Assembly: GCA_023920165.1 (NCBI GenBank)
Contig: CP089277.1
Location: 4,278,001-4,342,000, forward strand
Length of the DNA: 64,000 bases
Reading direction: 5' to 3'
DNA from: Curvularia clavata
Taxonomy: Eukaryota
The position numbers and the translations under genes are program-made. Of this stretch, positions 17,946 through 59,700 are shown in pieces (positions within the stretch are counted from its first letter, which is position 1; every line of letters starts with the position of its first letter). The notes under the pieces were generated by a model. It was not told the origin of the DNA, ran no database searches, and worked only from the letters and a program-made list of their open reading frames with translations.

Positions 17946-17953
17946 CAGCCACC

Positions 17954-18646
17954 TGTTACAAGTAACAGATAAAAGGATTCTCTCCCCTGTTGATGGCGAG
18001 TGGTTGAGGGAAACCACTCGGGATCATGTCAGCGGCAATGATCCACGTGGGGCTGGGTCACGTGATTGCCATCCCGCCAAGACGAACCATCCGTGGGATG
18101 GCAGGACGCCTTGACAGGGCAGCTATCACAACCATCATTGACATCCTTAGGATGTAAGGGATGGAAAGGATGGCAGGATGGAACACGACGGGTATAAGAA
18201 TGGGTTAGATTTCGTTATTACACTCGTTGTGATCAACTCTTCATTGTACTTTCTTACAAGCTCTTTACTTAACAAGATTGATACTTTGTCATTTATTGCA
18301 CGCGTGGGTGCGATCAAATCGATCTGTATTGTGTCTGCTATCTACCATCTTCATTTATGTGTGGTGTATAGCTATTGCTTTTTCTTGTTGAGGCAGTGCA
18401 TCCTTGCTGTCGTCACAGTGGCTTGTTGCTTCAGCTCAGCTGAAGTCATTGCTTCTGCAGCCTTGCCCCGACTGCGACATCATTCTATCGCAATATAGGA
18501 TTAATTTTCTTTACCTTGGTTACTAGTATCCTATATACCTCGTTTACACTAGGACTTCCTGACAATCTCGCGGATTATCGCTTACATGCTGACTCACCTT
18601 AACCCGGACTGAGCAATAGAGAAGTATAGCCAAACCCCGTGTAACA
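17954..18646. mobile_element. Second solo LTR (693 bp) related to 16343-16697
   Basis: TGTTACAAGTAACA...CCCCGTGTAACA ends. Shares aaggattctctcc, gtcacgtga, gccatcccgccaagac and taacccggac blocks with the first copy. Flanks CCACC/CCATC are a target-site duplication with one C-to-T change. Confidence 0.72.
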
Positions 18647-21990: not shown

Positions 21991-22288
21991 ATGCGGCTAG
22001 CCCTAGTCGGGTAAGACCTGTGAATGTTCCTCTGTAACTACCATGAACCAGCTCGACAGCTGCACCACCAAAATCGACAGGAAATAGGTGCGCGTATGGA
22101 AACAGGCTGAAATAGGTAGGTTAACCCTATCGCCAGCGAGTGCAATCAAAAAGATTGGTCTAGTTCCATGGACATTTGAACGTTTCCCATTTATCTATGT
22201 ACCCATCCGTGCAGTCCACTAGCGCTGCCAACACTTCGCACATTGCCTCCAGTAACAAACTATCGTGAAATATCTAGATAGATGCAAG

Positions 22289-38700: not shown

Positions 38701-41700
38701 AAAGAGTAATGAGTCAATCGAACAAGAGACAAGCAACCAGGTAGAAGACTGGAGCGCTCAATTCGAGAGCAACGTCTACGCCGAAATCGAGGCAATCGAT
38801 GCCTCTGCTGTCGGTAACGACTTTATGGGTTGGACTTCTATGTACGACGGTAGCGCGATCGACAAGGCTGAGATGCAGGAATGGCTCGATGATACCATGC
38901 AGACAATACTTGATAGCCGACCAGCCGGCCATGTTCTTGAAATCGGCACTGGTACGGGTATGATCCTCTTTAATCTTGGTGAAGGGTTACAAAGCTATGT
39001 CGGTCTTGAACCATCTACTTCGGCGGCTGCGTTTGTTAATCGTAGGATTCAGACGCTTCCCGCTTTCGCGGGTAAAGCTGAGGTTCACGTGGGTACAGCG
39101 ACAGATATCAGCCAACTTCAAGATCTCCGCCCGGACGTAGTGGTTATCAACTCGGTGGCTCAGTACTTCCCATCGCCTGAGTACTTGGCTGAAGTCGTGC
39201 ACAATCTGGCCCAAATTCCTGGCGTCAAGCGTTTGTTCTTTGGAGACATGCGATCTTACGCCATCAACGACCAGTTTCTTGCAGCTAGGGCTCTGCACAA
39301 GCTGGGCGGACGAGCTACGAAGACTGATATGCGAAGCAAGATGGTCGAGCTGGAAAACTCTGAAGAAGAATTGCTCGTCGACCCTACCTTCTTCACCAAC
39401 CTAATGACCAAGCTTCCGGACCAAGTCGAGCATGTTGAGATTCTGCCAAAACGTATGCAGGCTACCAATGAACTCAGCGCCTATCGTTATGCAGCTGTGG
39501 TGCACATTCGCGATCCATCGAGACGAGCTCAGACCGTGCATGCCATTGAATCGAGCGCATGGATCGACTTCAGCAAATCTCAGATGGACCGCAAGGCCAT
39601 CATCAGTCTTCTCAAAAGCTCGGTAAACACTGAAGCTGTTGCTATCGGCAATATCCCCTACAGCAAGACTATCATAGCGCGACATGTCGTCCAATTGCTT
39701 GACGGAGACAATGCAGACGAGGACGTTGCGCAAGATAAACTTGATAAGCCCACCTGGATCTCCGCAGTTCGCTCCAAGGCCGAACACTGCCCATCACTAT
39801 CGGCCCTCGACCTTGTACAGCTTGGTGAGGAGGCAGGCTTCCATGTGGAGCTTAGCTGGGCTCGACAGCGATCTCATCACGGAGCAATCGACGCAGTCTT
39901 TCACCATTACCAGCCCGCTCGAGAAGGAAGCCGTGTTCTGTTTCAGTTTCCGACGGATACGTACCGGCGTCAGTCCGGTCCGCTTACAAACCGACCATTG
40001 CAGCGACTTCAGAGCCGGCGTATTGAAACAAAGGTTAGAGAAAAGCTGCGGGCCGTTTTGCCTTCATACATGATTCCATCGCTCATCGTGCTGGTCGACC
40101 AAATGCCCCTGAACCCCAACGGCAAAGTGGATAGGAAGGCATTAGAACGACGAGCCCGGGCAGTGCTACGGGTCGAAAAACCAGCTTCCGAACGTGTTGG
40201 TGCCCGTAATGAGACCGAGGCTGTACTTTGTGAGGAGTTTACCGACGTTCTCGGACTTGAGGTTGGTATTACGGATAACTTCTTCGACCTCGGTGGGCAC
40301 TCGCTTATGGCGACAAAACTCGCAGCCCGTATCAGTCGACGCCTTGACGCCCGCGTCTCTGTTAAAGATGTCTTTGATCAGCCTGTCATTGCTGACCTCG
40401 CCACCTCCATTCGCCGTGGTTCGACCCCTCACAATCCTATCACCCCAACCGAGTACTCTGGTCCAGTAGAGCAATCGTTTGCTCAAAGCCGTCTCTGGTT
40501 CTTAGACCAGTTGAATCTCGGTGCATCTCTATATCTCATGCCTCTTGCGTTGCGTTTGCGTGGACCTCTCCGCATTGATGCTCTCACAGCTGCGCTCTTC
40601 GCATTGGAACAGCGACACGAGACTCTCCGAACCGTCTTCAAGGAGCAAGATGGCGTAGGCATCCAAATCATTCAACCTAGCCACAAGAAGAAGCTCAGAG
40701 TCATTGATGTACCTGCGGGCGACTTTTCTGAGGCACTACATCACGAACGCACTGCCCCATTTGATCTCGCATCAGAGCCGGGCTTCAGAGTCGCACTTCT
40801 TCAGCTTGAGCCTTCTGATCATGTGCTGTCTATCGTCATGCATCATATCATCTACGATGGCTGGTCTATCGACATTTTGTGTCAAGAACTGGGCCAGTTC
40901 TACGCTGCTGCAATCCAGGGCCAAGATCCATTGGGAGAAGTGAGCCCGCTCCCAATTCAATACCGTGACTTCTCTGTCTGGCAGAAGCAACCTGAGCAGG
41001 TCGCCGAGCATGAGCGGCAGCTTGCGTACTGGGTCGATCAGTTGGCCGACAGTGCTCCTGCTGAGTTCCTTGCCGATCTCCCACGCCCACCCGTCTTGTC
41101 TGGTGATGCCGGACTGGTCCACCTCACTATCGAAGGCCCCATATATGACCGCCTGAAAGCCTTTTGTCGAGTGCACCAGACTACAACTTTTGCAGTGCTA
41201 CTAGCAGCCTTCCGCGCAACGCACTATCGTCTTACAGGTGCCGAAGATGCTACTGTTGGCACACCAATCGCCAACCGTAACCGGCCAGAGCTTGAAAACT
41301 TGGTCGGATTCTTCGTCAATACTCAGTGTATGAGAATCATTGTTGGAGCTGATGACACGTTTGAGCAGCTAGTGCGCCAGGTTCGATCTACAGCAACAGC
41401 TGCCTTTACAAACCAAGACGTTCCTTTTGAACGCATCGTGTCAACACTCCTGCCAGGCTCTCGCGATACCGCCCGCAACCCACTGGCACAGCTCATGTTT
41501 GCTGTCCATTCTCTCAAGGACCTTGGCAAAATTCAGTTCCAGGGCCTTGTGGGCGAGACGATTCCCACGGCTTCTTTCACTCGATTCGACGTCGAGTTCC
41601 ATTTGTTTCAGGAAGTCGGTCGTCTCAGCGGAAATGTGCTCTTCTCGACTGATCTATTCGAGCCGGAGACAATCCAGGGCATGGTCTCTGTGTTCATGGA

Positions 41701-44700
41701 GATCTTGCGCGGAGCTCTTGACCAGCCTCAGATCCCCATTGCCGTCCTACCGCTCACAAACGGCCTCACGGAGCTTCGCGACAGAGGCCTGTTTGAAATT
41801 GAGCAGCCTCAATATCCCCGCAACTCGAGCGTTGTCGACGTTTTCCGCGCTCAGGTCGTTGCTTGCCCAGATGCAATCGCTGTGAAAGATTCGACGTCGC
41901 AGCTCACCTACGCCCAACTTGACAAGCAGTCCGATGAGGTGGCTGTATGGCTACATCAACGAAATTTGCCAGCAGAATCCCTTGTTGGCGTGCTAGCACC
42001 CAGATCATGCCAGACTATCATTACCTTCCTCGGTATTCTGAAGGCCAACCTAGCGTATCTCCCGCTAGACGTCAACGTCCCGGCAGCCCGTATTCAGGCA
42101 ATCTTATCGTCCGTTGCAGGGAAGAAAATCCTCCTGCTTGGTTCTGATCAGTCTCAGCCGGAAATTCGGCTTGATGACGTCGAATTCGTACGAATCAATG
42201 AAACGATGGACCACAGCATGGCGAAGGATAATACTACCCGCTCTGGACCCTCAGCTACAAGCCTTGCTTATGTTATATTCACTTCCGGATCCACTGGCCA
42301 GCCGAAGGGCGTCAAGGTGGAACACCGCGGTATTGTTCGCCTCGTCAAGAACAGCAACGTGGTAGCAAAGATGCCAGAAGCGGCATGTGTTGCACACCTC
42401 TCAAATCTTGCGTTTGACGCCGCGACATGGGAAATCTACGTTGCGCTCTTGAACGGTGGCTCGCTCATCTGTATCGACTACTTCACCACGCTAGACAGCA
42501 TGGTCCTCGAAGCCGTTTTCGAGCGAGAAAAGATCCGTGCAGCCATGTTCCCACCAGCGCTTCTGAAACAATGCCTACTCAATATCCCTACGACCATTAG
42601 CGCGCTAGATGTTATTCTCGCTGCTGGTGACCGATTTGATAGGCGCGACGCTATTGCGGCGCAGGCGCTTGTTGGAGGTGGTGTATACAATGCCTACGGT
42701 CCTACGGAAAATACTACGCTTAGCACAATATACAACGTTGTGAATAGCGATCCAAACGTCAACGGTATTCCAATCGGACTTCCTGTCAGCAACTCTGGCG
42801 TGTATATCATGGATCCCAACCAGCAGCCTGTCCCGTTGGGCGTCATGGGAGAGCTTGTTGTGGTTGGCGATGGTGTAGCCCGAGGTTATACTGATCCAGC
42901 TCTTGATGTTGATCGTTTCATCAAGGTTGAAATCGATGGCCAGATGGTACGAGCCTACCGCACTGGTGACCGTGTTCGACATCGACCCAAGGACGGTCAA
43001 ATTGAGTTCTTTGGCCGAATGGATCACCAAGTCAAGATCCGAGGACATCGTGTCGAATTGGCTGAGGTAGAGCACGTCATCCTAGATAACAGCTTAGTTC
43101 AGGACGCTGCAGTCATTGTCCACAAGCAAGCTGACCAGGAGATCGAAATGATCGCATTTGCTGTAGTCCGGGGCGATAACGATAGCAAGCACCCAGAGAA
43201 GGATATCCTGGATCAAGTGAAGGTCTTGCTTCCATCATACATGGTACCAGCTCAAATGGTGCTGCTTAACAGCATGCCTCTCAACGCCAACGGCAAGGTC
43301 GATCGCAAAGAGCTTGCTAAGAGGGCGGAGACTGTGCCGCGAAGCGAGATGGCATACGTCGCTCCAGAGAGGATTCCGCCTCGCAATGAAATCGAAACAA
43401 TTCTTTGCGAAGAATACGCCGAGGTCCTTGGCGTCGAGGTTGGTGTCATGGACAACTTTTTCGATCTTGGAGGGCACTCTCTCATGGCGACCAAGCTTGC
43501 AGCCCGTGCCACTCGTCGACTTGATGCAAAATTGTCCGTTAAGGACATTTTTGATTATCCAATTTTAGCCAACCTTGCAGCAGCGGTTCAACGAGGCTCG
43601 ACTCCACATAATGCGATTCTCGCAACCACATACTCCGGACCAGTTGAACAATCATTCGCCCAGGGGCGCCTGTGGTTCTTGGACCAGCTTAATGTTGGCT
43701 CGAATTGGTACCTTCAGCCAATTGCCATACGCATACATGGATCACTCAATATTAACGCGCTCACTACCGCGCTGCATGCCCTAGAACAACGTCACGAGAC
43801 GTTGCGCACCACTTTTGAGGAAGAGGACGGCGTTGGTATGCAGGTCGTCCAAGAATATGAACCGATGGAGCTCAGGATAATGGATATTGCTACCGATTAC
43901 GATGGCGATTATACAGAAGCGTTGAAGGGAGAGCAGACGACCCCCTTCGATCTAGAGTCGGAGCCAGGATGGAGGGTATCGCTGCTCCGTATGAACGACA
44001 ACGATCACATCTTGTCTCTGGTTCTACATCACATCATCTCCGATGGATGGTCTGTCGACGTTCTACGCCAGGAGTTGAAGCAATTCTATGCCGCTGCACT
44101 CCAAGGCCTGGATCCTCTGTCAGGGGTTGATCCACTCCCCATCCAGTATCGCGACTTCTCTCTCTGGCAAAAGCAGCCAGAGCAAGTTGCTGAGCACGAA
44201 CGACAGCTCAAGTACTGGGTTGAGCAGTTGGCTGACAATTCCCCTGCTACGCTTCTTGCGGACCGGCCACGTCCATCTGTGCTGTCGGGCCAGGCCGGCT
44301 CGGTCCCGCTCTCTATCGAAGGTCAGATCTATGAGAAGCTTCAGGCCTTCTGCCGAGCTCATCAAACGACCTCCTTTTCCGTTTTGCTCGCTGCCTTCCG
44401 AGCTGCTCACTTCCGCCTGACGGGTGTTGACGACGCGACGATTGGCATACCGATCGCCAATCGTAACCGACCTGAGCTAGAGCACCTCATCGGCTTTTTC
44501 GTTAACCGGCAGTGTATGCGGATCACGGTTGGGGAAGATGATACGTTCGAATCTCTTATCCGCCAGGTTCACTCAACAGCCACTGCAGCGTATGCTAATC
44601 AAGACGTGCCGTTCGAGCGAATCGTATCATCCCTTCTTTCTGGCTCAAGAGACACATCTCGTAATCCACTCGTCCAGCTAGTATTCGCCGTTCACTCCCA

Positions 44701-47700
44701 GAAGAACCTTGGCAAGTTCGAGTTGCAAGACTTGACATCTGAGCCAGTTGCTGGGGCTATCTCTACTCGATTCGATGCGGAATTTCATCTATTCCAGGAA
44801 GAAGAGAGGTTGAACGGTGTTGTGTATTATGCAACCGATCTGTTCGATGCGGAGACTATCCAAGGGGTGGTGTCTGTTTTCCAAGAAATCTTACGTCGCG
44901 GCCTCAACCATCCACGAACGCCGATCGCAGCTCTGTCGCTTACGGACGGGCTGGATAATCTTCGCAAGATGAATCTGGTTGACTTCAAGCGGACTGACTA
45001 TCCCCGCGACTCTAGCATGGTCGACATTTTCCGCGAGCAAGTCGCTACCTATCCGGACGTGATTGCTGTCAAGGACTCGACTTTACAGCTGACCTACGCG
45101 CAACTTGATCAACAATCCGATGAGATAGCCACCTGGTTGCGAAACCAAAAAATGGCGCCAGAAACTCTGGTGGGTGTCCTCGCTCCACGATCGTGCCAGA
45201 CTATCGTAGCCTTCCTTGGTGTCCTCAAGGCGAACCTAGCCTATCTACCTCTCGATGTCAATGCCCCGATGGCCCGCATTGAGAAAATCATGTCTTCTGT
45301 GCCAGGTAGCAAGCTGCTTCTCCTAGGTTCTGATGTGCCTGCCCAGGAGATCCAGCTGCAGAATGTTGAGTTGGTGCGTATCGAAGACACTCTCGGTCAC
45401 GCTGCCTCTGCCGGTACAGCGACAACAGAACCCTCTCCAACCAGCCTAGCGTACGTCATATTCACATCTGGATCGACGGGTAAGCCAAAGGGTGTGATGG
45501 TCGAGCATCGAAGCGTCATTCGCCTCGTGAGAAAAGAAAGCAATTCCATGTCCAAGATGCCTTCCGGAGCTCGCGTTGCGCACTTGACTAACATCGCCTT
45601 CGACGTCTCAGCATGGGAGGTATATGCTACGCTTCTCAACGGAGGGACTCTGGTCTGTGTCGATTATTTTACTTCGTTCGATGCTAAAGCCCTCGGTCTG
45701 CTGTTCGAGCGGGAGCAGATTACTGCGGCTATGATCACGCCTACGTTACTCAAGCAGTGCATCACTATTGTACCAGAAGCTCTCCGCAAGTTGTCCGTTC
45801 TGTACACCGGTGGCGATCGCTTTGATAGGCGCGATGCTATCGCGACAAAAGCGCTTGTCAAGGGCCCAGTTTACAATGCATGGGGCCCTACAGAAACGAC
45901 AATCGTCAGCACAATCTATGAGCTTGCCGATGACGATCAGTTCACCAATGGTGTGCCTATCGGAAAGGCCGTGAGCAATTCTTGGGCCTATGTCATGGAC
46001 CTCAATCAACAACTCATTCCAGTTGGTGTCATGGGAGAAGCTGTCGTTATTGGAGACGGCCTTGCCCGAGGATATACAGATCCCGCCCTGGACTGCAACC
46101 GCTTTGTGCATATCACTATCGATGGCAAACGCGTGCGCGCCTATCGAACTGGTGACCGCGCGCGTTATCGACCTAAAGATGGCGAAATCGAATTTTTTGG
46201 GCGTATGGACCGACAGCTCAAGATTCGTGGTCATCGTATTGAGCCCGCCGAGATTGAGCATGCCATGCTTGGCTACAATGACGTCGTTGATGTAGCCATT
46301 GTCACTCGCCATCAAGATGGTGCAGGCTTAGAAATGGTTGCCTTTGTTACAGCTCACACTAACAAGTCTATCGAACGCAATGAAGCCACCAATCAAGTGG
46401 CTGGATGGGGGGACCACTTCGAATCGAGTACATATGCAGAGCTCGACACCCTTGTCCAGTCTGATGTTGGCAAGGACTTTGTCGGCTGGACGAACATGTA
46501 TGATGGCGGTGCGATCGATCAGGCCGAGATGCAGTCATGGCTTGACGATACCATACAGACGATTGTTGATGGCCAGCCTGCTGGTCATGTCCTTGAGATC
46601 GGTACTGGTACTGGTATGATCATGTTTGGTCTCGGGAAACAGGGACTGCAAAGCTACGTCGGCCTTGAGCCCTCAACCTCGGCCACTGCGTACGTCAACA
46701 GGAAGATCAAGACCGTTCCAATGGTAGCTGGCAAAGCCAAGGTATATGTCGGCACTGCAACGGAGGCGGCTCAACTCAAGGGACTCCATCCAGAAGTTGT
46801 CGTCATCAATTCTGTGGCTCAATACTTCCCTACGCCAGAGTATCTCCTCGAGGTCGTCGGTATCCTCGCTCAGATACCAGGTGTCAAACGCTTGTTCTTT
46901 GGAGACATACGATCCTATGCTACTAACAGGCAATTCCTTGCAGCCAGAGCCTTTCATATGCTAGGGTCCAACGCGAAGAAACATGACATCCGCCAGAAAA
47001 TGGCTGAGTTGGATGAATTCGAAGAAGAGTTGATTGTCGATCCCTCTTTCTTCACTGGTCTGGTCAGCCGACTACCAGGCCAGGTCAAGCATGTGGAGAT
47101 TCTTCCAAAACAAATGATCGCTACAAACGAGCTCAGCGCGTATCGTTATGCAGCCGTTGTTCATCTAGCTCTTCCCGAAGAGCAGCACATAGCGAAAATC
47201 GAAAAGGGCGCCTGGGTCGACTTTACAGCCACCAAGATGGATCGAAGCGCTCTTGTTCATCATCTGAAGAGCTCGTCAAACGCTGAAACTGTAGCTATCA
47301 GCAACATTCCATTCAGCAAAACTAATTTCGATTGTCATCTTCTCGCCTCTCTGGATGAGGACGAAGAACACTCGCTCGACGGATCCGCCTGGATCAAAAC
47401 TATTCATTCCAGCGCCGAACAGTGTCCATCGCTATCCGCAACTGATCTCGTTGAGATCGCTAAAGAGGTGGGCTTCCGTGTCGAGCTCAGCTGGGCTCGG
47501 CAAAAGTCTCAGAAGGGTGCACTTGACGCTATCTTCCACCAATACCAATCTCCCAAAGAAGGTAGCCGTGTTCTAATACAATTCCCGACTGACGACCAGG
47601 GTCAATCGATAGAGTCTCTTACGAACCGACCGTTACAGCGAGTTCAGAGCCGCCGGATTGAAACACAGATTCGTGAGCGACTACAGGCTATGCTACCATC

Positions 47701-50700
47701 ATACATGATTCCAGCTCGGATCGTGGTGCTAGATGAGATGCCAGTCAATGCCAACGGCAAAGTCGACCGCAAGGAGCTGACGCGCAGGGCGAAGGTGGTC
47801 CCGAGAATAGAAACAGCTGCGGAGCGTATTCAACCCCGAAATGAAGTCGAAGCGGTTCTGTGCGAAGAATTCAGTGAAGTCCTCGGCGTCGAAGTTGGTG
47901 TCACGGACAACTTCTTCGATCTTGGTGGACACTCGCTCATGGCTACGAAGCTGGCTGCACGTACTGGGCGCCGACTTGATGCAAAGGTGTCTGTCAAAGA
48001 CGTTTTCGACCACCCAGTACTAGCGGATCTTGCCGCTGCTATCCAGCGAGGCTCGACTCCCCACTCGGCGATCGTTACTACTGAGTACTCTGGACCTGTA
48101 GAGCATTCATATGCCCAGGGCCGCCTTTGGTTCCTTGAACAACTCAATTTCAAGGCAACGTGGTATCTCCTACCGCTTGCGGTGCGGATTCGTGGGCCAC
48201 TCAATATCAAGGCCCTTACCACGGCGTTACATGCGCTAGAGCAGCGACATGAGACTTTAAGAACAACATTCATTGAGCAGGATGGTGTGGGCAAGCAAGC
48301 CGTTCAGCCATTTCAGCCGAAGGAACTCGAAATCGTCGACATAGCGGCCGACCACCAGGGCGACTACCTTAAAGTGCTACGTGACGAGCAGACTACCATG
48401 TTCAATCTTGCAACTGAGCCTGGTTGGAGGGTGACCTTACACAGAGTGGATCAAAACACGCATAATCTTTCCATCGTCATGCACCACATCATTTCGGACG
48501 GCTGGTCAGTCGATGTTCTGCGCCACGAGCTGAGGCAGTTCTATGCTGCTGCCCTCCGGGGTCAGGATCCCCTCGCGCATATCAGCCCGCTCCCAATTCA
48601 ATACCGCGACTTCTCGCTCTGGCAAAAGCAACCAGACCAGATCAACGAACATGCAAAACAACTTGAGTACTGGATCAAGCAGCTGGCAGACAGCTCCCCA
48701 GCTGAGCTCCCAACCGATTTACCTCGCCCGGCCGTACTGTCAGGGAAAGCTGGCGAAGTGGCCCTTTCTGTCAAGGGCCCGCTATATGAGCGTCTGCAAG
48801 CTTTCTGCAAGACTCATCAGACAACTGCCTTCGCCACACTCCTAGCAGCCTTCCGTGCAACGCATTATCGCCTTACAGGAGCCGAAGACGCTACCATCGG
48901 CACACCTATCGCCAACCGCAACAGGCCCGAATTAGAGAACCTGATTGGCTTCTTCGTGAATGCTCAGTGTATGCGCATTACTATCGACGGAGACGACACT
49001 TTCGAGAGTCTTATACGTCAGGTCCGAGCAACTGCTACGGCTGCCTTCGCGAATCAAGATGTCCCCTTTGAACGCATCGTGTCTACCATGCAATCTACCT
49101 CACGAGACACGTCAAGGAATCCGCTTGTACAGCTCATGTTCGCCCTCCACTCTCAACAGGACCTCGGAAAAATCCAACTTGAAGGCTGCGAAACGGAGCC
49201 TATTCCTCGAGCTGTACGCACTCGCTTCGATCTCGAGTTCCATCTCTACCAAGAGCAAGGGAGCCTAGGCGGCATTGTGTACTTTGCCACCGATTTGTTT
49301 GAGCCTGAGAGCATTGAGGGGATGGTTTCCATTTTCAAGGAAGTCCTCGCTCGAGCTCTTGACCAACCCCGAACGCCACTGGCGCTTCTACCGCTCACCG
49401 ATGGGGTGGCTGAGCTTCGCAGAAGAGGGCTGCTCGAGATTGAAAGGCTCAGCTATCCCCGCGACTCGAGCGTTGTCGACGTTTTCCGCGCTCAGGTCGT
49501 TGCTTGCCCAGATGCAATCGCTGTGAAAGATTCGACGTCGCAGCTCACCTACGCCCAACTTGACAAGCAGTCCGATGAGGTGGCTGTATGGCTACATCAA
49601 CGAAATTTGCCAGCAGAATCCCTTGTTGGCGTGCTAGCACCCAGATCATGCCAGACTATCATTACCTTCCTCGGTATTCTGAAGGCCAACCTAGCATATC
49701 TCCCGCTAGACGTCAACGTCCCATCTGCTCGTATCGAGGCGATCCTCTCGGCAGTCCCTGGCCATAAGTTGGTCCTCCTTAGTGCTGACGTCCCCGGTCC
49801 AGAGGCTCCACTTGTCAACGTAGAGCTAGTGCGGATCGACGACATCTTACGCCAAAACATCCACGCTTCGAATGCAGGGCCTCTAGCAAACTATCCCTCA
49901 GCAACTAGTCTTGCCTACGTCATGTTTACATCTGGATCTACAGGCAAGCCCAAGGGTGTTATGGTTGAGCATCGAAGCATTGTACGCTTGGTAAAGGAAA
50001 CCAACCTAGTCCCAGCAGCAAAGGCAGTTTCCTTAGTAGCTCATATCTCTAATCTTGCTTTTGATGCTGCAACTTGGGAGATATACGCTGCGCTCCTAAA
50101 TGGCGGAACTACCGTTTGCATTGATCATATCACTGTGTTGGATCCTACTAAACTCGCTCTCGTCTTCTCAAGCGAGAAGATCAAAGCTGCGTTCTTCTCA
50201 ACTGCTTTGCTCAAGCAGCGGCTCTACGAAGAACCATCTACTATCACTGGACTCGATCTTTTGTATGCTGGCGGTGAGAGAATGAGGCCTCAAGACGCTC
50301 TTAAGACGCGAGAGCTAGTTCGTGGTAGCTTCTGCCACGTCTATGGGCCGACAGAAAATACAACATTCAGCACTATCTATCCTATGGGGGCAGAAGAACG
50401 CTGCGTCAACGGACTACCTATTGGCCGCGCAGTCAGCCATTCAGGCGCAGTGATCATGGATGCTAATCAGCGCCTCGTGCCGTTAGGGGTGATGGGCGAG
50501 CTTGTTGTTACAGGAGATGGTATCGCCCGAGGATACACCGACCCAGCCTTGGACGTCAACCGCTTCGTCAACGTCACTATTGAAGGTCAAACCTTGAGGG
50601 CTTACAGAACTGGCGACCGTGCCCGCTACAGGCCTAAAGACGCACAGATTGAATTTTTTGGCCGAATGGATCAACAGGTCAAGATTCGAGGCCATCGTAT

Positions 50701-53700
50701 TGAGCCAGCTGAGGTCGAGCATGCGTTGCTCAACAATGACTTGCTTCAAGACGCTGCAGTCGTTATTCGAAAGCAACAAGATGATGAGCTAGAGATGGTT
50801 GCTTTTGTAGAACTAAAGAGCAATGAGTCAATCGAACAAGAGACAAGCAACCAGGTAGAAGACTGGAGCGCTCAATTCGAGAGCAACGTCTACGCCGAAA
50901 TCGAGGCAATCGATGCCTCTGCTGTCGGTAACGACTTTATGGGTTGGACTTCTATGTACGACGGTAGCGCGATCGACAAGGCTGAGATGCAGGAATGGCT
51001 CGATGATACCATGCAGACAATACTTGATAGCCGACCAGCCGGCCATGTTCTTGAAATCGGCACTGGTACGGGTATGATCCTCTTTAATCTTGGTGAAGGG
51101 TTACAAAGCTATGTCGGTCTTGAACCATCTACTTCGGCGGCTGCGTTTGTTAATCGTAGGATTCAGACGCTTCCCGCTTTCGCGGGTAAAGCTGAGGTTC
51201 ACGTGGGTACAGCGACAGATATCAGCCAACTTCAAGATCTCCGCCCGGATGTAGTGGTTATCAACTCGGTGGCTCAGTACTTCCCATCGTCTGAGTACTT
51301 ATCTAAGGTTTTGTACACATTGGCTCGTATTCCAGGAGTCAGGCGTCTCTTTTTCGGCGATATGCGATCTTTGGCTATTAACAGGCAGTTCCTTGCAGCT
51401 CGCGCCTTACACAACATAGGTAGTAAGGCTACTAAGAGCGCCATTCGAAGCAAGATGGTCGAGCTGGAAAACTCTGAAGAAGAATTGCTCGTCGACCCAA
51501 CGTTCTTCACGAACCTAGCGACCGAGCTTCCAGAGGTTGAGCACGTCGAGATCTTGCCAAAACGAATGATGGCCACCAACGAACTTAGCGCATACCGATA
51601 CGCGGCGGTTGTTCATATTCGAGACCCAGCAAGGCAGGCGCAGACGGTGCACACCATTGATCCTACCGCTTGGATCGATTTTAGCGCATCTCAAATGAAT
51701 CGCACTGTGCTTGCCAACCTCTTGCAAAACTCAGCAGATGCTGCAGCTATCGCTGTCAGCAACATCCCATACAGCAAGACGATCTTGGCGCGCCACATTG
51801 TTCAGTCGCTTGATGACGATCTCACAGACAGCGATGATCCACAAGATAAGCTTGAAGGAGCTGCTTGGATGTCTGCTATCCGGTCCAATATCAAAACCTG
51901 TGCATCGCTGTCCGCCTTCGACCTTGCGCAGCTTGCCCAGGAGACAGGATTCCGTGTGGAGCTTAGTTGGGCAAGGCAACGAACCCATCACGGAGCTTTA
52001 GACGCTGTTTTCCATCACTACAAGTCTAACCAGGATGGTGGTCGTGTCCTTGTGCAGTTCCCGACTGATAATCGACCTCGTCTATCAGGGCAACTCACAA
52101 ACCAACCGCTGCAGCGGCTGCAGAGTCGACGATTCGAGACACAGATTCGAGACCAGCTCAGCTCTTTACTTCCATCTTACATGATCCCGTCGTTTATCGT
52201 GATGGTCGATGAGATGCCCTTGAATGCCAATGGCAAGGTAGACAGGAAAGCCCTAGAGCGAAGGGCTCGCATGGTTCAGAAAGTTGAAAAGCCAGCTTCC
52301 GAGCGAGTCGGTGCACGTAACGAGATCGAAGCCGCGCTGTGCGAAGTATTCGTAGATCTACTCGGCACTGAGGTCAGCATTACTGACAACTTCTTTAACC
52401 TTGGCGGTCATTCGCTCATGGCCACAAAACTGGCTGCTCGAATTAGCAGACGCCTTGACGCGCGCATCTCTGTCAAGGATGTGTTTGACTACCCTGTTCT
52501 CGCTGACCTTGCGGGCGCCGTTCAGCGAGGCTCAACTCCACACAACCCAATTGTCGCGACGCCCTACTCAGGGCCCGTCGAGCAGTCCTTTGCTCAGGGC
52601 CGCCTGTGGTTCTTAGACCAGCTTAACGCCGGTTCGCTGTGGTACATCCAGCCAATCGCCGTACGCGTACGCGGTTCGCTCAATATTGGTGCGCTGACTA
52701 CAGCACTCAATGCGCTTGAGAAGCGCCACGAACCGTTGCGCACGACTTTCGAAGAGCATGAAGGCATTGGTGTGCAAGTCGTTCAACCGCATCAGCCAAA
52801 GAAGCTTAGAATTGTCGATACCGTGGCTGACTATCAGGGTGACTTCATCACGGCTCTACGGAAGGAGCAACAGACTCTTTTCAATCTCGCGACCGAGCCA
52901 GGCTGGAGAGTGTCTCTGCTACGCATTGGGGAGGACGACAACATTCTCTCCATCGTCATGCACCACATTGTTTCAGACGGTTGGTCTGTTGACATCTTGC
53001 GTCAAGATCTAAAACTATTCTATGCCGCCGCTCTCAAGGGCCAGGAGCCGCAAGTAGACGCGCTCCCAATCCAGTATCGTGACTTTGCCTTCTGGCAGAA
53101 ACAGCCGGAGCAGGTAGCTGAGCACCAGCGACAACTCGACTACTGGATTGAACAATTGAAGGACAGCACGCCTGCCGAGCTTATCACCGATTTTCCGCGG
53201 CCAGAGGTGCTGTCTGGCACTGCTGGCATCGTACAGCTTGCCGTGGACGGCCAAGTCTACGAGGGTCTCCGGGCTTTCTGCAGAATTCATCAAACAACGT
53301 CCTTCGTAGTACTTCTTACAGCCTTTAGAGCTGCCCATTACCGTCTAACAGGCACCGAGGACGCGACAATCGGTTCTCCCATCGCCAACCGGAATCGGCC
53401 CGAACTGGAGAGCCTCATTGGCTTCTTCGTCAATACCCAGTGTATGCGCATTATGGTCGGAGAGGACGACACATTCGAACGATTGGTACAGCAGGTCCGA
53501 TCAACGACAACAGCTGCATTTGCTAACCAGGACGTTCCCTTCGAACGAATCGTTTCATCTGTCCAGTCCACCTCAAGAGATGCCTCCCGAAACCCTTTGG
53601 TGCAGCTCATGTTTGCACTTCATTCACAGCAGGGTATCGGCCTGATGGAACTCGAAGGTGTTGAGACAGAGCCAATTGCAAGAGATGTATCGACGCGCTT

Positions 53701-56700
53701 CGACATTGAATTCCATCTTTACCAGAAGGAAGAGAGCTTGCACGGTGTTATCCACTTTGCTGCCGACTTGTTCGAGCCTGAGACTATCCAAGGCTTAGTC
53801 TCCGTCTTCCAGGAAATCCTTCGTGGAGGACTCGAGACACCTCGAATGCCAATCAGCGTCCTACCTCTTGATAACAACATCCCGGAGCTTCTCGTCGGTA
53901 TGCTCGATGTCGACACTCCAGAGTATCCTCGCGATTCAAGCGTGGTTGATGTGTTCCGCACCCAAGTTGCTGCCAGCCCGGATGCGATCGCCGTTAAAGA
54001 TTCAACTTCGCAGCTCACCTATGCTCAGCTTGATGAAGAATCCAACAAAGTGGCTACATGGTTGAGTCAAAGGCAGCTGGCTCCCGAAACACTGGTAGGC
54101 GTCCTTGCGCCTAGATCGTGTCAAACAATTGTTACATTCTTTGGTATTCTGAAGGCCAACCTGGCGTATCTCCCGCTAGACGTCAACGTCCCATCTGCTC
54201 GTATCGAGGCGATCCTCTCGGCAGTCCCTGGCCATAAGTTGGTCCTCCTTAGTGCTGACGTCCCCGGTCCAGAGGCTCCACTTGTCAACGTAGAGCTAGT
54301 GCGGATCGACGACATCTTACGCCAAAACATCCACGCTTCGAATGCAGAGCCTCTAGCAAACTATCCCTTAGCAACTAGTCTTGCCTACGTCATGTTTACA
54401 TCTGGATCTACAGGCAAGCCTAAGGGTGTTATGGTTGAGCATCGAAGCATTGTACGCTTGGTAAAGGAAACCAACCTAGTCCCAGCAGCAAAGGCAGTTT
54501 CCTTAGTAGCTCATATCTCTAATCTTGCTTTTGATGCTGCAACTTGGGAGATATACGCTGCGCTCCTAAATGGCGGAACTACCGTTTGCATTGATCATAT
54601 TACTGTGTTGGATCCTACTAAACTCGCTCTCGTCTTCTCAAGCGAGAAGATCAAAGCTGCGTTCTTCTCAACTGCTTTGCTCAAGCAGCGGCTCTACGAA
54701 GAACCATCTACTATCACTGGACTCGATCTTTTGTATGCTGGCGGTGAGAGAATGAGGCCTCAAGACGCTCTTAAGACGCGAGAACTAGTTCGTGGTAGCT
54801 TCTGCCACGTCTATGGGCCGACAGAAAATACAACATTCAGCACTATCTATCCTATGGGGGCAGAAGAACGCTGCGTCAACGGACTACCTATTGGCCGCGC
54901 AGTCAGCCATTCAGGCGCAGTGATCATGGATGCTAATCAGCGCCTCGTGCCGTTAGGGGTGATGGGCGAGCTTGTTGTTACAGGAGACGGTGTCGCCCGA
55001 GGATACACCGACCCCGCTCTGAATCGTGATCGCTTCGTGGAAGTCAATGTCCACGGTCAGGTTCTGAGGGCATATCGCACAGGCGATCAAGCCCGCTATC
55101 GACCCAAAGATGGCCAGATTGAGTTCTCCGGGCGTATGGACAGACAACTGAAAATTCGAGGCCATCGTATCGAGCCAGCTGAGGTCGAGCACGCCATACT
55201 TAGCCACGACGATATTCGAAACGCAGTTGTGGTTACTCGACAACAAGAAGGCCAAGATCTGGAAATGGTCGCTTTCGTCTCTACTCCCAACGATCAAACC
55301 GTAGAATACGACGAAGCTAGGAATCAAGTTGAGGACTGGGGGGCTCAATTCGAGAGCAACGTTTACGCCGAGATCGAGGAGATCGACTCCTCTGCCGTTG
55401 GCAATGACTTCATGGGCTGGACATCCATGTACGACGGTACTGCGATCGATAAAGCAGAGATGCAGGAATGGCTCGACGATACTATGAGAACCCTCCATGA
55501 CGGCCGAGAACCTGGCCACGTCCTCGAAGTTGGTACAGGCACGGGCATGATCCTATTCAATCTCGGCAAGGGCCTGCAGAGCTACGTCGGCCTCGAGCCG
55601 TCGACTTCGGCAGCTGCATTCGTCAATCGCAAGATTGAGACTATCTCATCATTGGCGGGTAAGGCTAAAGTTGAGATTGGCACAGCAACCGACGTAGGCC
55701 AGCTCAAGAACCTCCACTCCGATTTGGTCGTTATTAATTCGGTAGCTCAATATTTCCCTTCCCCCGAGTATCTAGTCGAAGCAGTAACTGCTCTAGCCCA
55801 CATCCCAGGTGTAAAACGCTTGTTCTTCGGCGACATGCGATCCTACGCTATGAATAAGCAGTTCCTGGTTGCTAGGGCTCTCCATACGCTAGGAGCCAAG
55901 GCAAACAAGGACGATGTTCGCAGGAAGATGGTGGAGCTAGAGGAATTCGAAGAGGAACTACTCGTGGATCCAGCCTTCTTCACAGGCCTCGCAAACTGGC
56001 TGTCAGAAGTCGAACATGTCGAGATTCTACCCAAACAGATGACAGCTACCAACGAGCTGAGCTCATACCGTTATGCAGCCGTCGTACACCTACGGCTTCC
56101 AGGCCAGGAGGCACAACCAGTCGTGACAGTCAATCAAGATGCCTGGGTTGACTTCGGAGGATCCAAGATGGATCGACACGCTCTTCTTCGCCACCTACAA
56201 AGCTCACCAAAGGCCGAAACTGTAGCCATCAGCAACATCCCCTATAGCAAGACGATTTATGAGCGCCATGTCCTCGCATCTTTGGATGACGATGAAGTCG
56301 AGGACTCGTTAGATGGGTCAGCATGGCTATCGGATGTTCGCTCTACCGCCGAACAGTGCGCGTCACTCTCCGGAGTCGACTTAGTTCAAATCGCCAAGGA
56401 GGCCGGCTTCCGCGTGGAGCTCAGCTGGGCGCGACAGAGGTCTCAGAAGGGTGGAATCGACGCGGTCTTCCACCACTACGAGTCAGTGCACGATGGAGCT
56501 CGCGTCATGGTCAAGTTCCCGACAGATGATCAAGGCCGAGCGCTCGATTCGCTTGCGAACAGGCCGCTGCAACGACTCCAGAGTCGACGAATCGAGGTGC
56601 AAATTCGGGAGCGGCTACAAGCTGTACTGCCGTCCTATATGATGCCAGTCCGCATTGTAGTCTTGGACGAGATGCCTATGAATGCGAACGGCAAGGTTGA

Positions 56701-59700
56701 CAGAAAAGTGCTTACCCGCAGAGCTAAGATGATTTCGAGGGTCGAGACAACCGCTGAACGCGTTGGGCCTCGCAACGACATAGAGGCTCTCCTCTGTGAG
56801 GAGTTTGCTGAAGTGCTTGGTGTCGAGGTTGGCATTAATGACAACTTCTTCGATCTTGGCGGACACTCTCTCATGGCCACGAAGCTTGCAGCTCGTAGTA
56901 GCCGTCGCTTCGATGCGAAGGTCTCTGTCAAAGACGTGTTTGATCATCCTATCCTAGCGGACCTAGCAGCTGCGATTCAGCGAGGCTCAACTCCACACAA
57001 CCCCATCCTCGCAACACAATATAGCGGGCCTGTGGAGCAGTCTTTCGCTCAGGGTCGGCTGTGGTTCCTTGAACAGCTGAACGTCAGTTCAACATGGTAT
57101 CTGCAACCAATCGCAGTGCGTATGCGCGGACCGCTTAAGATTGAGGCGCTCGCGGCGGCGTTACACGCTCTGGAGGAGCGTCACGAAACCCTGCGAACGA
57201 CGTTTGAAGAGCACGACGGCATTGGTATGCAGGTTGTTCAGCCACATCGCCCCAAAGAACTCAGAGTGATTGATGTACAAGCTGAGCATGATGGCGATTA
57301 TACTCAGGCTCTGCGCACAGAGCAAACAACTCCGTTCAATTTAGAAACGGAACCAGGATGGAGGGTATCGGTGTTTCGCCTGAACGAAGATGACAACATC
57401 CTCTCTATAGTGATGCACCATATCATCTCTGATGGTTGGTCGTTCGATATCCTGCGTAAGGAGATCAGAGAGTTTTACAACGCCGTGCTCAAGGGCAAGG
57501 ACCCCTTGGCGCAAATGAGTCCCTTGCATATCCAATATCGCGACTTTTCCGTTTGGCAAAAGCAGCTGAATCAGATCACCGAGCATAAACGGCAGCTTGA
57601 TTACTGGACGAAGAACCTAGCCGACAATACTCCAGCCGAGCTCCCAACCGATCTGCCTCGGCCAGCCGTTCTATCCGGTAAGGCTGGAGTCATCCAGCTC
57701 TCTATTACAGGTCCAGTCTATGATCGTCTCCGCGCGTTCTGCCGAGTCCACCAGACCACCTTATTCGCGGTGCTCCTCACTGTATTTCGAGCCACCCACT
57801 ATCGCCTCACTGGAGCAGAGGATGCTACGATTGGTACGCCTATCGCTAATCGTAACAGACCAGAGCTTGAGAACTTGATCGGGTTTTTTGTTAACACTCA
57901 GTGCATGCGGATTACCGTAGAAGAGGAGGACACGTTCGAGACACTCATCCACCAGGTTCGGACTACAACTACAGCCGCTTTCGCCAACCAAGACGTACCT
58001 TTTGAGCGAATTGTGTCAGCCCTACTCCCAGGCTCCCGAGACACGTCCCGCAACCCGCTCTCTCAGATCATGTTTGCCGTACATTCTCAGGAAAACATCA
58101 GCAAGATCGAACTAGACGGCCTAGAGAGCGAGGCCATTTCACGAGCCACATCAACTCGTTTCGATCTAGAGTTCCATCTTTTCCAGGAAGAGAAGGGCCT
58201 AGGCGGCATTGTATTGTTTGCAGCAGATCTGTTCGAGCCGGAGACGATCGACAGCCTCGTCTTCGTCTTCCAAGAGATCCTCCGCCAGAGTCTCGAGACA
58301 CCCAAGACTCCAATTGCGGTCTTGCCTCTTACCAATGGTATTGCGCAGCTTCGCAGCATGTGTGTGCTAGATATTGAGAAGACCGCCTACCCTCAAGACT
58401 CTAGCGTCATCGATATCTTCCGCCAGCAGGTTGCTGCCCGCCCGGATGCCACGGCCGTCACAGATTCTACCTCTCAGCTCACCTACGCACAGCTGGATCT
58501 CCACTCTGACGAGCTAGCCAACTGGCTGCGTCAGAAGAAGATGGCACCCGAGACTTTGGTGGGTGTGCTAGCACCACGGTCTTGTCAAACGATCGTTACC
58601 TTTCTTGGTATTTTAAAGGCAAGCTTAGCCTATCTACCGCTAGACGTCAAAGTGCCGGTTGCCCGCATAGAGGCCATTTTGTCATCCATTTCAGGGCAGA
58701 AACTGATTCTGCTTGGGCAGGACGTACCTGTCCCAGAAATCCAGCTCCCAGACGTCGATGTCGTACCAATCAGTGAAATCTTAGGCAGCTCTGTCCCTTC
58801 TCGTGCTACAGATAAGAGTGTAGGGCCATTGGCAAGAAATCTTGCGTATGTTCTGTTCACATCTGGATCCACAGGCAAGCCCAAGGGTGTCATGATCGAG
58901 CACCGCAGTATTGTGCGCCTTGTCAAAGAGACGAATCTTATCTCTAAGCTACCAAGCGCGCCTCGCACGGCACATCTCACCAATCTCGTCTTTGACAACT
59001 CTGCATGGGAAATTTACTCCACCCTTCTCAACGGGGGAACGCTAGTCTGCATCGACTATACCACCGTTCTGGATAGCAAAGCCCTCGAAACCGTGTTCAG
59101 GGAGCAACGCATTCAGACATCTCTGATGCCTCCTGCGCTACTTAAAGAGTGCTTAGCCAACATGCCTACTATGTTCGATGACGTAGAGGTGCTCTACGCG
59201 CTTGGAGATCGATTCGACAAACAGGATGCCATGAAAGCGCGCTCGATAGTCAAGACCGCCGTCTACAACGCCTATGGTCCCACGGAAAACACGGTCATCA
59301 GTACTATCTACGAGATTGCTAAGGACGATTCGTTCGTGAACGGTGTTCCCATCGGTCGGAGCATCAGCAACTCCGGAGCCTTCATCATGGACTCCCGGCA
59401 ACAGCTCGTCCCCGTTGGCGTGCTAGGCGAGCTCGTCGTTTCTGGCGATGGCCTTGCGAGAGGATATACTGATCCCACACTGGATGTAAATCGCTTCGTT
59501 GAGGTGACTGTTGATGGCCAACAGGTTAGAGTATACCGGACCGGTGATCGCGTACGCTTCCGTCCAAAGGATGGTCAGATTGAATTTTTTAGTCGCATGG
59601 ATCAGCAAGTCAAGATTCGAGGCCATCGTATCGAGCCGGCTGAGGTAGAGCACGTTATTCTCACCAACAACATTATCCGCGATGCGGCTGTTGCAATCCG

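What the first reader, a model, noticed from the sequence alone, without database searches (positions are those of the whole stretch)
49674..50520. Natural A-domain specificity-core swap: module 6 carries module 7's pocket inside a Val-module chassis
Seen: 49674-50520 is near-identical to 54144-54990 (module 7), about 5 mismatches in ~820 bp. The sequence just upstream (49464-49722) is copied from Val module 4, and just downstream (50523-51300) from Val module 3. The junctions fall in conserved motifs: A2 (GILKANLAYLPLDVNVP) and A6 (GELVVTGDG.ARGYTDP). These bracket all the variable specificity-code residues. Known: A-subdomain recombination is a recognised route of NRPS diversification. Inference: a recent gene conversion reprogrammed module 6 from a Val-type pocket to the module-7 (Ile-type) pocket without touching the C, MT or T interfaces. 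That is a ready-made natural template for fungal NRPS engineering.
Basis: partly seen in the sequence, partly recalled or inferred. Interest (0 to 1): 0.85.

Follow-up and report, generated by a model that had tools for sequence, protein, structure and literature searches.

The report
Patchwork adenylation domain in KK-1-type synthetase
One module of a giant fungal peptide-making enzyme gene has had about two kilobases overwritten with near-exact copies from three sister modules, giving modules 6 and 7 the same substrate pocket; this kind of recombination is already known, and whether it changed the peptide is untested.

Summary
Window 49674-50520 differs from 54144-54990 at 8 of 847 bases.

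Module 6 of a KK-1-type NRPS (ORF 30140 to the window end) is a mosaic over 49296-51300. It carries tracts from module 3, module 4, module 7 and module 3 again, plus a short module-3 patch at 51446-51517.

It is not a misassembly. In two public runs the tract contigs have about twice the single-copy depth. Single-copy contigs bridge three of the five junctions, and both alleles appear at several sites.

The M4/M7 and M7/M3 junctions lie in the longest exact identity islands between those donors. This points to homology-driven gene conversion or template switching. Module 6 is the recipient by parsimony.

A6 and A7 share the pocket code DAWFYGVTF. The three other Val modules carry DAWMLAATL.

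"Reprogramming to Ile" is unproven. The reference kk1B could not be compared, and the nearest characterised pocket is a destruxin-type MeVal module. The tracts also cover the C-A linker and the first part of the methyltransferase.

This is a new member of a known kind. Interest is moderate.

The parts
30140..64000 (+). KK-1-type NRPS gene (kk1B-like). Open frame of 11,286 codons running off the window. Nine A domains are visible. N-methyltransferase inserts sit in modules 3, 5, 6, 7 and 9.
   Evidence: module order and MT positions match kk1B as described in PMC10512319
48107..49390 (+). Condensation domain of module 6. It is native (64-67% identical to every other module) up to about 49295.
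   Evidence: Pfam PF00668; identity matrix
49296..49448 (+). Tract M3a: end of the C domain plus C-A linker, copied from module 3 (37194-37346). 7 differences in 153, all transitions. It is more diverged than the other tracts.
   Evidence: Fisher p=0.001 against the other tracts
49456..49722 (+). Tract M4: C-A linker and A1-A2 region, copied from module 4 (41815-42081). 2 differences in 267.
   Evidence: contig depth about 2x in runs X1 and X2
49697..50544 (+). Tract M7: A2-to-A6 core holding all nine pocket-code positions, the same as module 7 (54167-55014). 7 differences in 848. Two of them (50518, 50522) are private to module 6. Amino-acid changes are G/E, S/L and I/V only.
   Evidence: about 2x depth
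50512..51300 (+). Tract M3b: A6-A8 motifs and the first part of the methyltransferase including the SAM motif, copied from module 3 (38398-39186). 9 differences in 789.
   Evidence: about 2x depth, and both alleles at 50614 and 50635 in X2
51446..51517 (+). Short module-3-like patch (39332-39403). 53 identical bases are followed by 3 differences to 51517 (51499, 51502, 51511). It sits inside otherwise native methyltransferase sequence.
51301..52579 (+). Native remainder of module 6: rest of the MT, A9-A10 (AMP-binding_C 52133-52237) and the carrier domain (52334-52522).
54167..55014 (+). Module 7 copy of the shared A2-A6 core (presumed donor).
38398..39186 (+). Module 3 copy of tract M3b (presumed donor). 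Module 3 also holds 37194-37346 (M3a) and 39332-39403 (the patch).
41815..42081 (+). Module 4 copy of tract M4 (presumed donor).

Best explanation
Module 6 of this KK-1-type synthetase gene is a real patchwork made by homology-driven, non-reciprocal recombination between the gene's own repeated modules. This means ectopic gene conversion, or a single break repair that switched templates. About 2 kb of module 6, from the end of its C domain to the first part of its methyltransferase, was overwritten. The order is module 3, module 4, module 7, module 3. The donor copies stayed intact.

As a result A6 carries the same substrate pocket as A7 and differs from the other Val modules 3, 4 and 9. Modules 6 and 7 should therefore load the same residue. 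If the ancestral gene made KK-1 (MeVal at position 6, MeIle at position 7), the predicted product is a congener with the same residue at both positions. Most likely that is MeIle-MeIle, 14 Da heavier.

Shown: the mosaic, that it is real in the reads, the junctions in identity islands, and the identical pockets. Inferred: module 6 as recipient, one event or several, and any change of product.
For: Mosaic: sliding windows and tract lists and the base-by-base alignment. 5 of the 6 high-identity tracts among all module pairs involve module 6.

Not selection: third-codon identity is 0.98-0.99 in three tracts and 0.88 in M3a, against 0.36-0.43 background.

Real DNA:
- In X1 the single-copy contigs have depth 92.5 and 95.5. 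The tract contigs have 152.7, 174.2, 162.7 and 167.7.
- In X2 the single-copy contigs have 48.3-51.9. The tract contigs have 86.2-105.9.
- Single-copy contigs with 0 differences run 48000-49348 (X1, X2), 49390-49493 (X2) and 51260-51475 (X2). They bridge 3 of the 5 junctions.
- At 50614 and 50635, X2 shows both alleles at about 1x each.
- A run filed under another organism label (X3) has contigs 49259-49419, 50286-50613 and 50681-51463 across junctions, with 1, 3 and 6 differences.

Mechanism: the M4/M7 junction lies in the longest exact M4-M7 identity run of the whole module alignment (29 nt, 49694-49722). The M7/M3 junction lies in the longest M3-M7 run (33 nt, 50512-50544). Tracts M4, M7 and M3b are equally diverged (Fisher p=1.0 and 0.62).

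Recipient: every position of module 6 has one donor and the tracts tile without overlap. That is automatic if module 6 received them. It needs coincidences if module 6 donated them.

Pocket: M6 = M7 = DAWFYGVTF, and M3 = M4 = M9 = DAWMLAATL. The 3 amino-acid differences between the cores lie off the code positions. KK-1 has Val at positions 3, 4, 6 and 9 and Ile at 7 (PMC10512319, passages). The frame is intact.
Against: The direction of the M6/M7 tract is not shown by any outgroup. No orthologue was found in 3 protein-database searches (best identities 65%, 60% and 72%) or in 2 metagenome scans (none, and best 60%).

The pieces bridging the M4/M7 and M7/M3b junctions are not among the 32 contig pieces printed; 128 were not shown. 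The order of the tracts at those two joints therefore rests on depth and on elimination.

X1 or X2 may be the data the window was assembled from, so they do not stand as a second strain.

The pocket may not be 'Ile-type'. Module 5 of two destruxin-type synthetases reads DAWFYGGTF and DAWFYGVSF. In DetxA/DtxS1 that module loads Val (PMC8233208, passages).

The cluster's kk1I, kk1H and kk1D frames have exactly the published lengths. The organism may therefore be the KK-1 species itself. If the reference gene has the same mosaic, the product is unchanged.

M3a is significantly older than the other tracts, so not everything came from one event.
Confidence: 0.55

Rival explanations
1. The recombination is real but product-neutral. 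The shared pocket accepts both Val and Ile. Which residue ends up at positions 6 and 7 is set elsewhere, for example by the acceptor site of the C domain. The KK-1 producer has the same mosaic and still makes MeVal6-MeIle7.
For: The cluster genes upstream have the same order as kk1C-kk1J. kk1I, kk1H and kk1D have exactly the published lengths of 311, 348 and 996 aa (Table 1 of PMC10512319). The window may therefore come from the KK-1 species. The nearest characterised pocket is a MeVal module. The reference draft assembly split the gene into three ORFs, which near-identical internal repeats could cause. Five minor compounds 14 Da lighter are reported.
Against: Three other Val modules in the same enzyme use a different code that is identical among them. 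Intergenic distances differ from Table 2 of the paper by +91 to -837 bp (my arithmetic), so the window is not the deposited sequence. The paper attributes the ORF split to gene prediction, and says PacBio confirmed the assembly (data not shown).
Confidence: 0.22
2. The direction is reversed for the core. Module 6 originally had the DAWFYGVTF pocket as a Val pocket and donated it to module 7. Position 7, not position 6, is then the reprogrammed one (Ile to Val, 14 Da lighter).
For: The code is 8 of 9 the same as the MeVal module of destruxin-type synthetases. Conversion end points would gather at the same conserved motifs in either direction.
Against: Module 6 is the hub of all five tracts. Under this reading the ends of the M4 and M3b tracts would have to coincide, within 26 and 33 nt, with the ends of an independent M6->M7 event. 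In run X5 (2-5% diverged) the contig carrying module 7's own upstream sequence runs on about 90 nt into this core. This is a weak hint that the core belongs to module 7 in a relative.
Confidence: 0.15
3. Assembly artefact: a chimeric path or collapsed repeat, with module 6 in reality having its own unique A domain.
For: Short-read assemblers can jump between modules at shared motifs. All four runs laid are contigs, not raw reads.
Against: Tract contigs sit at about 2x single-copy depth in two runs. Single-copy contigs bridge three junctions. Two alleles appear at about 1x each at 50614 and 50635. The copies differ by about 1%, which a reused path would not give.
Confidence: 0.03
4. Recent duplication of whole modules, or protein-level convergence, explains the identity instead of conversion.
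For: Fungal NRPS modules do arise by tandem duplication (PMC2823734, passages).
Against: The C domain, the rest of the MT and the T domain of module 6 are only 56-76% identical to every other module. Three different donors abut one another. Synonymous sites are identical.
Confidence: 0.01

Closest known systems
kk1B, the KK-1 synthetase of Curvularia clavata BAUA-2787 (GenBank LC371755 / BBC83957.1; PMC10512319)
   Same: No introns. A starter A-T module is followed by C-A-(MT)-T modules, with MT in modules 3, 5, 6, 7 and 9. The neighbours are an amidase, a ~996-aa protein with no Pfam match, an ABC transporter, a D-2-hydroxyacid dehydrogenase, a P5C reductase and a thioesterase, in the same order. 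Three ORF lengths are identical.
   Different: Intergenic spacing differs by +91 to -837 bp from the published table. The reference sequence could not be fetched, so identity, and whether the mosaic is present there, are unknown.
Natural Acore subdomain swaps in bacterial NRPSs (Baunach et al. 2021, PMC8097286; includes the microcystin and hormaomycin cases cited there)
   Same: A stretch of the A core is closer to another module than to its own flanks. The breakpoints lie among the conserved A motifs. A long part of the core is exchanged, not just the pocket (passages).
   Different: [quoted passage not shown] Here the linker (tracts M3a and M4) and the A7-A8 hinge plus the MT start (tract M3b) are also replaced. 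Three donors from the same gene tile one module. The host is a fungus. No product change is documented here.
Engineered subdomain swaps (Kries 2015; Crusemann 2013; Meyer 2016; known to me only as cited in PMC8097286)
   Same: The specificity-bearing part of the A core is exchanged while the rest of the module is kept.
   Different: This is natural rather than designed. The exchanged unit (A2 to A6, about 275 residues) is larger than the conservative pocket-only designs described there.
Module 5 (N-Me-Val) of destruxin-type synthetases DtxS1/DetxA (PMC8233208)
   Same: Same clade of MT-bearing A domains (60-63% identity to the A6/A7 core). 8 of 9 pocket residues are the same in P0147 and P0142.
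   Different: P0147 and P0142 are homologues assigned by architecture (6 A domains, MT in modules 5 and 6), not the assayed enzymes. Position 322 or 330 differs.

Membership tests
KK-1-type NRPS (kk1B orthologue) | Ten modules with MT domains in modules 3, 5, 6, 7 and 9 | tested here: met
   Nine modules are visible before the window ends. SAM motifs lie at 38933, 46589, 51047, 55520 and 63188, that is in modules 3, 5, 6, 7 and 9. The tenth module lies outside the window.
KK-1-type NRPS (kk1B orthologue) | Cluster neighbours kk1C to kk1J | tested here: met
   Pfam finds amidase, ABC transporter, 2-hydroxyacid dehydrogenase, P5C reductase and thioesterase in the published order. First-Met lengths of 311, 348 and 996 aa equal Table 1 of the paper. 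kk1E and kk1F were not identified.
KK-1-type NRPS (kk1B orthologue) | High sequence identity to BBC83957.1 | not testable with these tools
   No hit above 72% identity in 3 protein searches. No listed hit exceeded 8000 aa in the search that allowed up to 17,500 aa.
KK-1-type NRPS (kk1B orthologue) | Product is KK-1 | not testable with these tools
   This needs chemistry on this strain.
Ectopic (intragenic) gene conversion | Sharp-edged tracts of near-identity, including synonymous sites, in a background of diverged paralogues | tested here: met
Ectopic (intragenic) gene conversion | Non-reciprocal: the donor copy is kept in its own context | tested here: met
   Modules 3, 4 and 7 keep the tracts within their own flanks. 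Both copies are present in the reads at about 2x depth.
Ectopic (intragenic) gene conversion | End points in stretches of shared identity | tested here: met
   The longest M4/M7 run (29 nt) and the longest M3/M7 run (33 nt) hold two junctions. The M3a/M4 junction (49449-49455) does not lie in a long run.
Ectopic (intragenic) gene conversion | Known direction, from an unconverted orthologue | not testable with these tools
   No orthologue was retrieved.
Natural Acore subdomain swap (sensu Baunach 2021) | Exchange confined to the A core, with native C-A linker and Asub kept | tested here: not met
   Tract M7 alone fits. Tracts M3a and M4 replace the linker, and M3b replaces A6-A8 and the MT start. 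Overall it works like such a swap but is wider.
Natural Acore subdomain swap (sensu Baunach 2021) | The swap goes with a changed residue in the product | not testable with these tools
   There is no chemistry for this strain and no reference alignment.
Repeat-induced point mutation acting on the tracts | Only C:G to T:A transitions in duplicated DNA, with a CpA bias | tested here: inconclusive
   22 of 23 distinct differences are transitions. In the three young tracts, 7 of 15 transitions are at CpA/TpG and 5 at CpG (contexts read by me). There is no outgroup to give direction.

The most novel reading that the evidence does not exclude
The KK-1 producer itself carries this mosaic. Two modules with identical A cores (272 of 274 core residues the same, all nine code residues the same) would then install different residues, MeVal at position 6 and MeIle at position 7. 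Residue choice at these positions would be set outside the A core, by C-domain gating or by the module's other parts. This would be a natural, ready-made test of the disputed gatekeeping role of C domains.
Probability: 0.15. Interest if true: 0.8.

Novelty: new member of a known kind. Interest (0 to 1): 0.5.

Why it matters
Recombination inside A domains is thought to be the main natural route to new nonribosomal peptides, and it guides enzyme engineering. The documented cases are almost all bacterial (PMC8097286). This is a fungal case readable base by base. It has three donors within one gene, junctions at the A2 and A6 motifs in the longest identity islands, and an intact reading frame. Its family has a known product and a working heterologous expression system in Aspergillus oryzae (PMC5900794, PMC13197311).

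One alignment with the reference gene and one LC-MS run would decide between two outcomes. Either this is a natural Val-to-Ile (or Ile-to-Val) reprogramming with usable breakpoints, or it is evidence that identical A cores can yield different residues.

Tried and rejected
1. The whole genome of the window is not held, so I could not look for other copies or the contig's context.

2. Three protein-database searches found no orthologue. The mosaic against longer proteins gave at best 65% identity. Modules 6-7 against proteins of 5500-17500 aa gave at best 60%, and no listed hit was over 8000 aa. The native C6 region against 858-2730 aa gave at best 72%. No outgroup was obtained.

3. Two metagenome scans also failed. 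The C6 query gave no relative among 61 pattern matches. The A6/A7 core query gave 73 loci, the best 60% identical. The loci were not used further.

4. Earlier findings of this scan held nothing by place, by sequence or by words.

5. Mapping the published BAUA-2787 kk1B primers (Supplementary Table S1 of PMC13197311) onto the window would have sampled the reference sequence inside the mosaic.

6. Run X5 (a lineage 2-5% diverged) has tract contigs at depth 11.3-12.8 against 6.2-8.7 for single-copy pieces. The cover is too low to say whether it carries the mosaic.

8. A literature search for KK-1 congeners by residue names found nothing relevant among 3 papers. The two KK-1 papers I searched for module, adenylation, substrate and specificity terms do not report A-domain specificity predictions in the passages shown. 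Their figures, and the supplements of PMC10512319, were not seen.

9. A megablast self-comparison printed nothing. I replaced it with the codon-aligned scan.
Full report
WHAT IS IN THE WINDOW

The window holds one uninterrupted frame from 30140 to its end: 11,286 codons with no stop. Motif mapping shows a starter A-T module followed by eight C-A-(MT)-T modules. SAM-binding motifs lie in modules 3, 5, 6, 7 and 9.

Upstream, on the expected strands, Pfam finds an amidase, an ABC transporter, a D-2-hydroxyacid dehydrogenase, a pyrroline-5-carboxylate reductase and a thioesterase. There is also a ~1000-residue frame with no Pfam match. This is the gene order of the KK-1 cluster of Curvularia clavata BAUA-2787 (PMC10512319, sections 21 and 22 read).

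The first-Met lengths of three frames are 311, 348 and 996 aa, exactly those of kk1I, kk1H and kk1D in that paper's Table 1. Intergenic distances differ from the paper's Table 2 by +91 to -837 bp (my arithmetic). I take the window to be the kk1B orthologue of the same or a sister species, not the deposited sequence.

KK-1 is D-Lac / Pip / MeVal / Val / MeAsp / MeVal / MeIle / Gly / MeVal / OMeTyr. Modules 3, 4, 6 and 9 should therefore load Val, and module 7 should load Ile.

THE OBSERVATION

49674-50520 and 54144-54990 differ at 8 of 847 positions. The edges are sharp: 98-100% identity inside and 70-75% just outside.

A codon-guided alignment of modules 2-9, scanned in 90-nt windows and for tracts of at least 93% identity, shows that module 6 is a mosaic:
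- 49296-49448 matches module 3, with 7 differences in 153.
- 49456-49722 matches module 4, with 2 in 267.
- 49697-50544 matches module 7, with 7 in 848. Two of these are private to module 6.
- 50512-51300 matches module 3 again, with 9 in 789.
- A 53-nt perfect module-3 patch starts at 51446.

Of the six tracts found among all module pairs, five involve module 6. The sixth is an 84-nt methyltransferase motif shared by modules 7 and 9. Elsewhere the modules are 50-76% identical.

Third-codon identity is 258/261, 246/251 and 79/80 in the three young tracts and 44/50 in the first. The background is 0.36-0.43. Protein-level constraint therefore cannot be the cause.

IS IT AN ASSEMBLY ARTEFACT?

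No whole genome is held. All four runs laid are Logan contigs, so the evidence is word depth and which contigs bridge what.

Depth:
- In X1, contigs over the unique parts have depth 92.5 and 95.5. Contigs 49464-49695, 49697-50130, 50132-50541 and 50515-51289 have 152.7, 174.2, 162.7 and 167.7.
- In X2 (same organism label, another study) the figures are 48.3-51.9 against 86.2-105.9.
- Each tract is therefore present about twice in the reads, as the mosaic requires. A chimeric path through single-copy sequence would not give this.

Bridging contigs:
- Single-copy contigs without any difference run 48000-49348 (both runs), 49390-49493 (X2) and 51260-51475 (X2). They bridge three of the five junctions.
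- The pieces over the M4/M7 and M7/M3b joints are not among the 32 printed; 128 were not shown. Those two joints rest on elimination. Each 2x tract has one copy continuing into its own module, and the other copy must join its neighbour.

Alleles and a further sample:
- At 50614 and 50635, X2 shows both alleles at about 1x each. At 49951 and 51250 the two runs show different alleles.
- A low-depth run filed under another organism label (X3) matches the window in the unique parts, with 1 difference in about 1,870 bases of the pieces shown. Its contigs 49259-49419, 50286-50613 and 50681-51463 lie across junctions.
- X1 or X2 may be the window's own source, so they test the assembly and not a second strain.

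I put misassembly at about 3%.

MECHANISM

Two junctions fall exactly where the two donors are most alike. The 29-nt run at 49694-49722 is the longest exact match between modules 4 and 7 in the whole module alignment. The 33-nt run at 50512-50544 is the longest between modules 3 and 7. These runs encode the A2 and A6 core motifs. This is the signature of homology-dependent recombination.

The donors keep their copies, so the exchange is non-reciprocal.

The M4, M7 and M3b tracts are equally diverged (0.7-1.1%; Fisher p=1.0 and 0.62). The first module-3 tract is older (4.6%, p=0.001). Two readings fit:
- One repair event copied in turn from modules 4, 7 and 3, switching template at the identity islands. 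Such switching is described for yeast break repair; I recall this and did not check it here.
- Several conversions occurred close in time.

In either case they came on top of an earlier module-3 conversion.

Module 6 as the recipient is a parsimony argument. A recipient is tiled by its most recent donors automatically. A donor would have to give three non-overlapping pieces to three modules.

CONSEQUENCE FOR THE ENZYME

Pfam places the C domain at 48107-49390, AMP-binding at 49484-50536, the methyltransferase core at 50990-51334, AMP-binding_C at 52133-52237 and the carrier domain at 52334-52522. The overwritten stretch therefore includes the end of the C domain, the C-A linker, the whole A core, the A7-A8 hinge and the SAM-binding start of the MT.

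Reading the nine pocket positions by alignment gives these codes (the position numbering is recalled from the GrsA convention):
- DAWMLAATL for modules 3, 4 and 9
- DAWFYGVTF for modules 6 and 7
- different codes for modules 2, 5 and 8

The two cores differ by G/E, S/L and I/V only, none at a code position. Modules 6 and 7 should thus select alike.

IS THE POCKET 'ILE-TYPE'?

That label comes only from KK-1's residue 7. I read the codes of two destruxin-type synthetases from the database hits, P0147 and P0142. Each has six A domains, an extra domain after module 2, and MT in modules 5 and 6.

Their module 5 reads DAWFYGGTF and DAWFYGVSF, 8 of 9 the same as A6/A7. Its core is the closest of their domains to A6/A7, at 60-63%. 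For DetxA/DtxS1, A1-A6 are stated to take beta-Ala, HIC, Pro, Ile, Val and Ala, with MT in modules 5 and 6 (PMC8233208, passages).

The nearest characterised pocket is therefore a MeVal pocket. The Ile module of those enzymes belongs to another clade (about 28% identity) and tells nothing. The shared KK pocket is a beta-branched aliphatic pocket. Whether it prefers Val, Ile or both is open.

WHAT COULD NOT BE DONE

Three protein searches and two metagenome scans gave no orthologue.

The supplement of PMC13197311 lists primers designed on BAUA-2787 kk1B.

The more diverged run X5 has tract contigs at 11.3-12.8 against 6.2-8.7 for unique pieces. Its module-7 contig stops about 90 nt into the core. 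This is compatible with the mosaic being present there too, but the cover is too low to say.

COMPARISON WITH WHAT IS KNOWN

Baunach et al. 2021 (PMC8097286, passages) show that partial A-core replacement by recombination is widespread in bacterial NRPSs. The breakpoints are spread among the conserved motifs, usually a long part of the core is exchanged, and the C-A linker and Asub are kept.

For fungi, Bushley and Turgeon 2010 (PMC2823734, passages) list recombination or gene conversion of modules within one gene as a likely mechanism. They document it at the level of domain phylogeny.

The present case works like those swaps but is wider: the linker and the hinge/MT start are also replaced. 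It also has three intragenic donors and is fungal. I file it as a new member of a known kind.

My searches for a description of this mosaic (and term searches inside the three KK-1 papers) found none. Figures and most supplements were not seen.

VERDICT

The recombination reading is strongly supported. Module 6 as recipient is likely. The claim of Val-to-Ile reprogramming is plausible but unproven, and the claim that the C, MT and T interfaces are untouched is wrong for the C-A and MT parts.

My odds:
- about 0.85 that this is real intragenic conversion with module 6 as recipient
- about 0.45 that the product differs from KK-1 at position 6
- about 0.2 that the product is unchanged
- about 0.15 that module 7 was the recipient

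Noticed in passing
49296-51300 against 37194-39186, 41815-42081 and 54167-55014: 22 of the 23 distinct differences between module 6 and its donors are transitions; the only transversion is at 50813. In the three young tracts, 7 of 15 transitions sit at CpA/TpG and 5 at CpG. For comparison, 151 of 214 changes in the X5 contigs are transitions. This could be light repeat-induced point mutation or deamination acting on the new repeats. If so, the ~1% divergence cannot date the event.
   Followed up: partly
49696, 50518, 50522: Three bases private to module 6 sit exactly at the M4/M7 and M7/M3b junctions. 50522 makes Ile instead of Val in the A6 motif. They may be remnants of the original module 6, heteroduplex repair scars, or later mutations.
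   Followed up: no
window 2425-28589: The rest of the KK-1 cluster lies upstream in reverse order: thioesterase, P5C reductase, D-2-hydroxyacid dehydrogenase, ABC transporter, a ~996-aa protein with no Pfam match, and an amidase. Three ORF lengths equal the published ones, but intergenic distances differ by +91 to -837 bp from the published table. kk1E and kk1F were not located.
   Followed up: partly
window 16200-22200: About 6 kb between the presumed kk1F region and kk1D has only short frames of 132-163 aa (20610-21008, 21499-21990, 21538-21957). The one frame scanned (21499-21990) had no Pfam match. The published cluster has only the 77-aa kk1E here. I did not examine it for repeats or transposon remains.
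   Followed up: no
P0147 and P0142 (database proteins), module 5: Destruxin-type synthetases carry a pocket code 8 of 9 the same as KK modules 6 and 7, in an MT-bearing module said to load Val. All KK modules 2-9 are 48-63% identical to their modules 5 and 6 but only about 23-35% to their modules 1-4. The KK modules therefore belong to one MT-associated A-domain clade.
   Followed up: partly
55364-55447 and 63032-63115: An 84-nt stretch of the methyltransferases of modules 7 and 9 is 93% identical (6 differences). It is the only high-identity tract that does not involve module 6. It may be a strongly conserved motif or an old small conversion.
   Followed up: no
runs X3, X4, X7: Runs filed under a different organism label hold this fungal gene almost unchanged at low depth. 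The same fungus seems to be present in samples of another organism. I did not pursue which.
   Followed up: no
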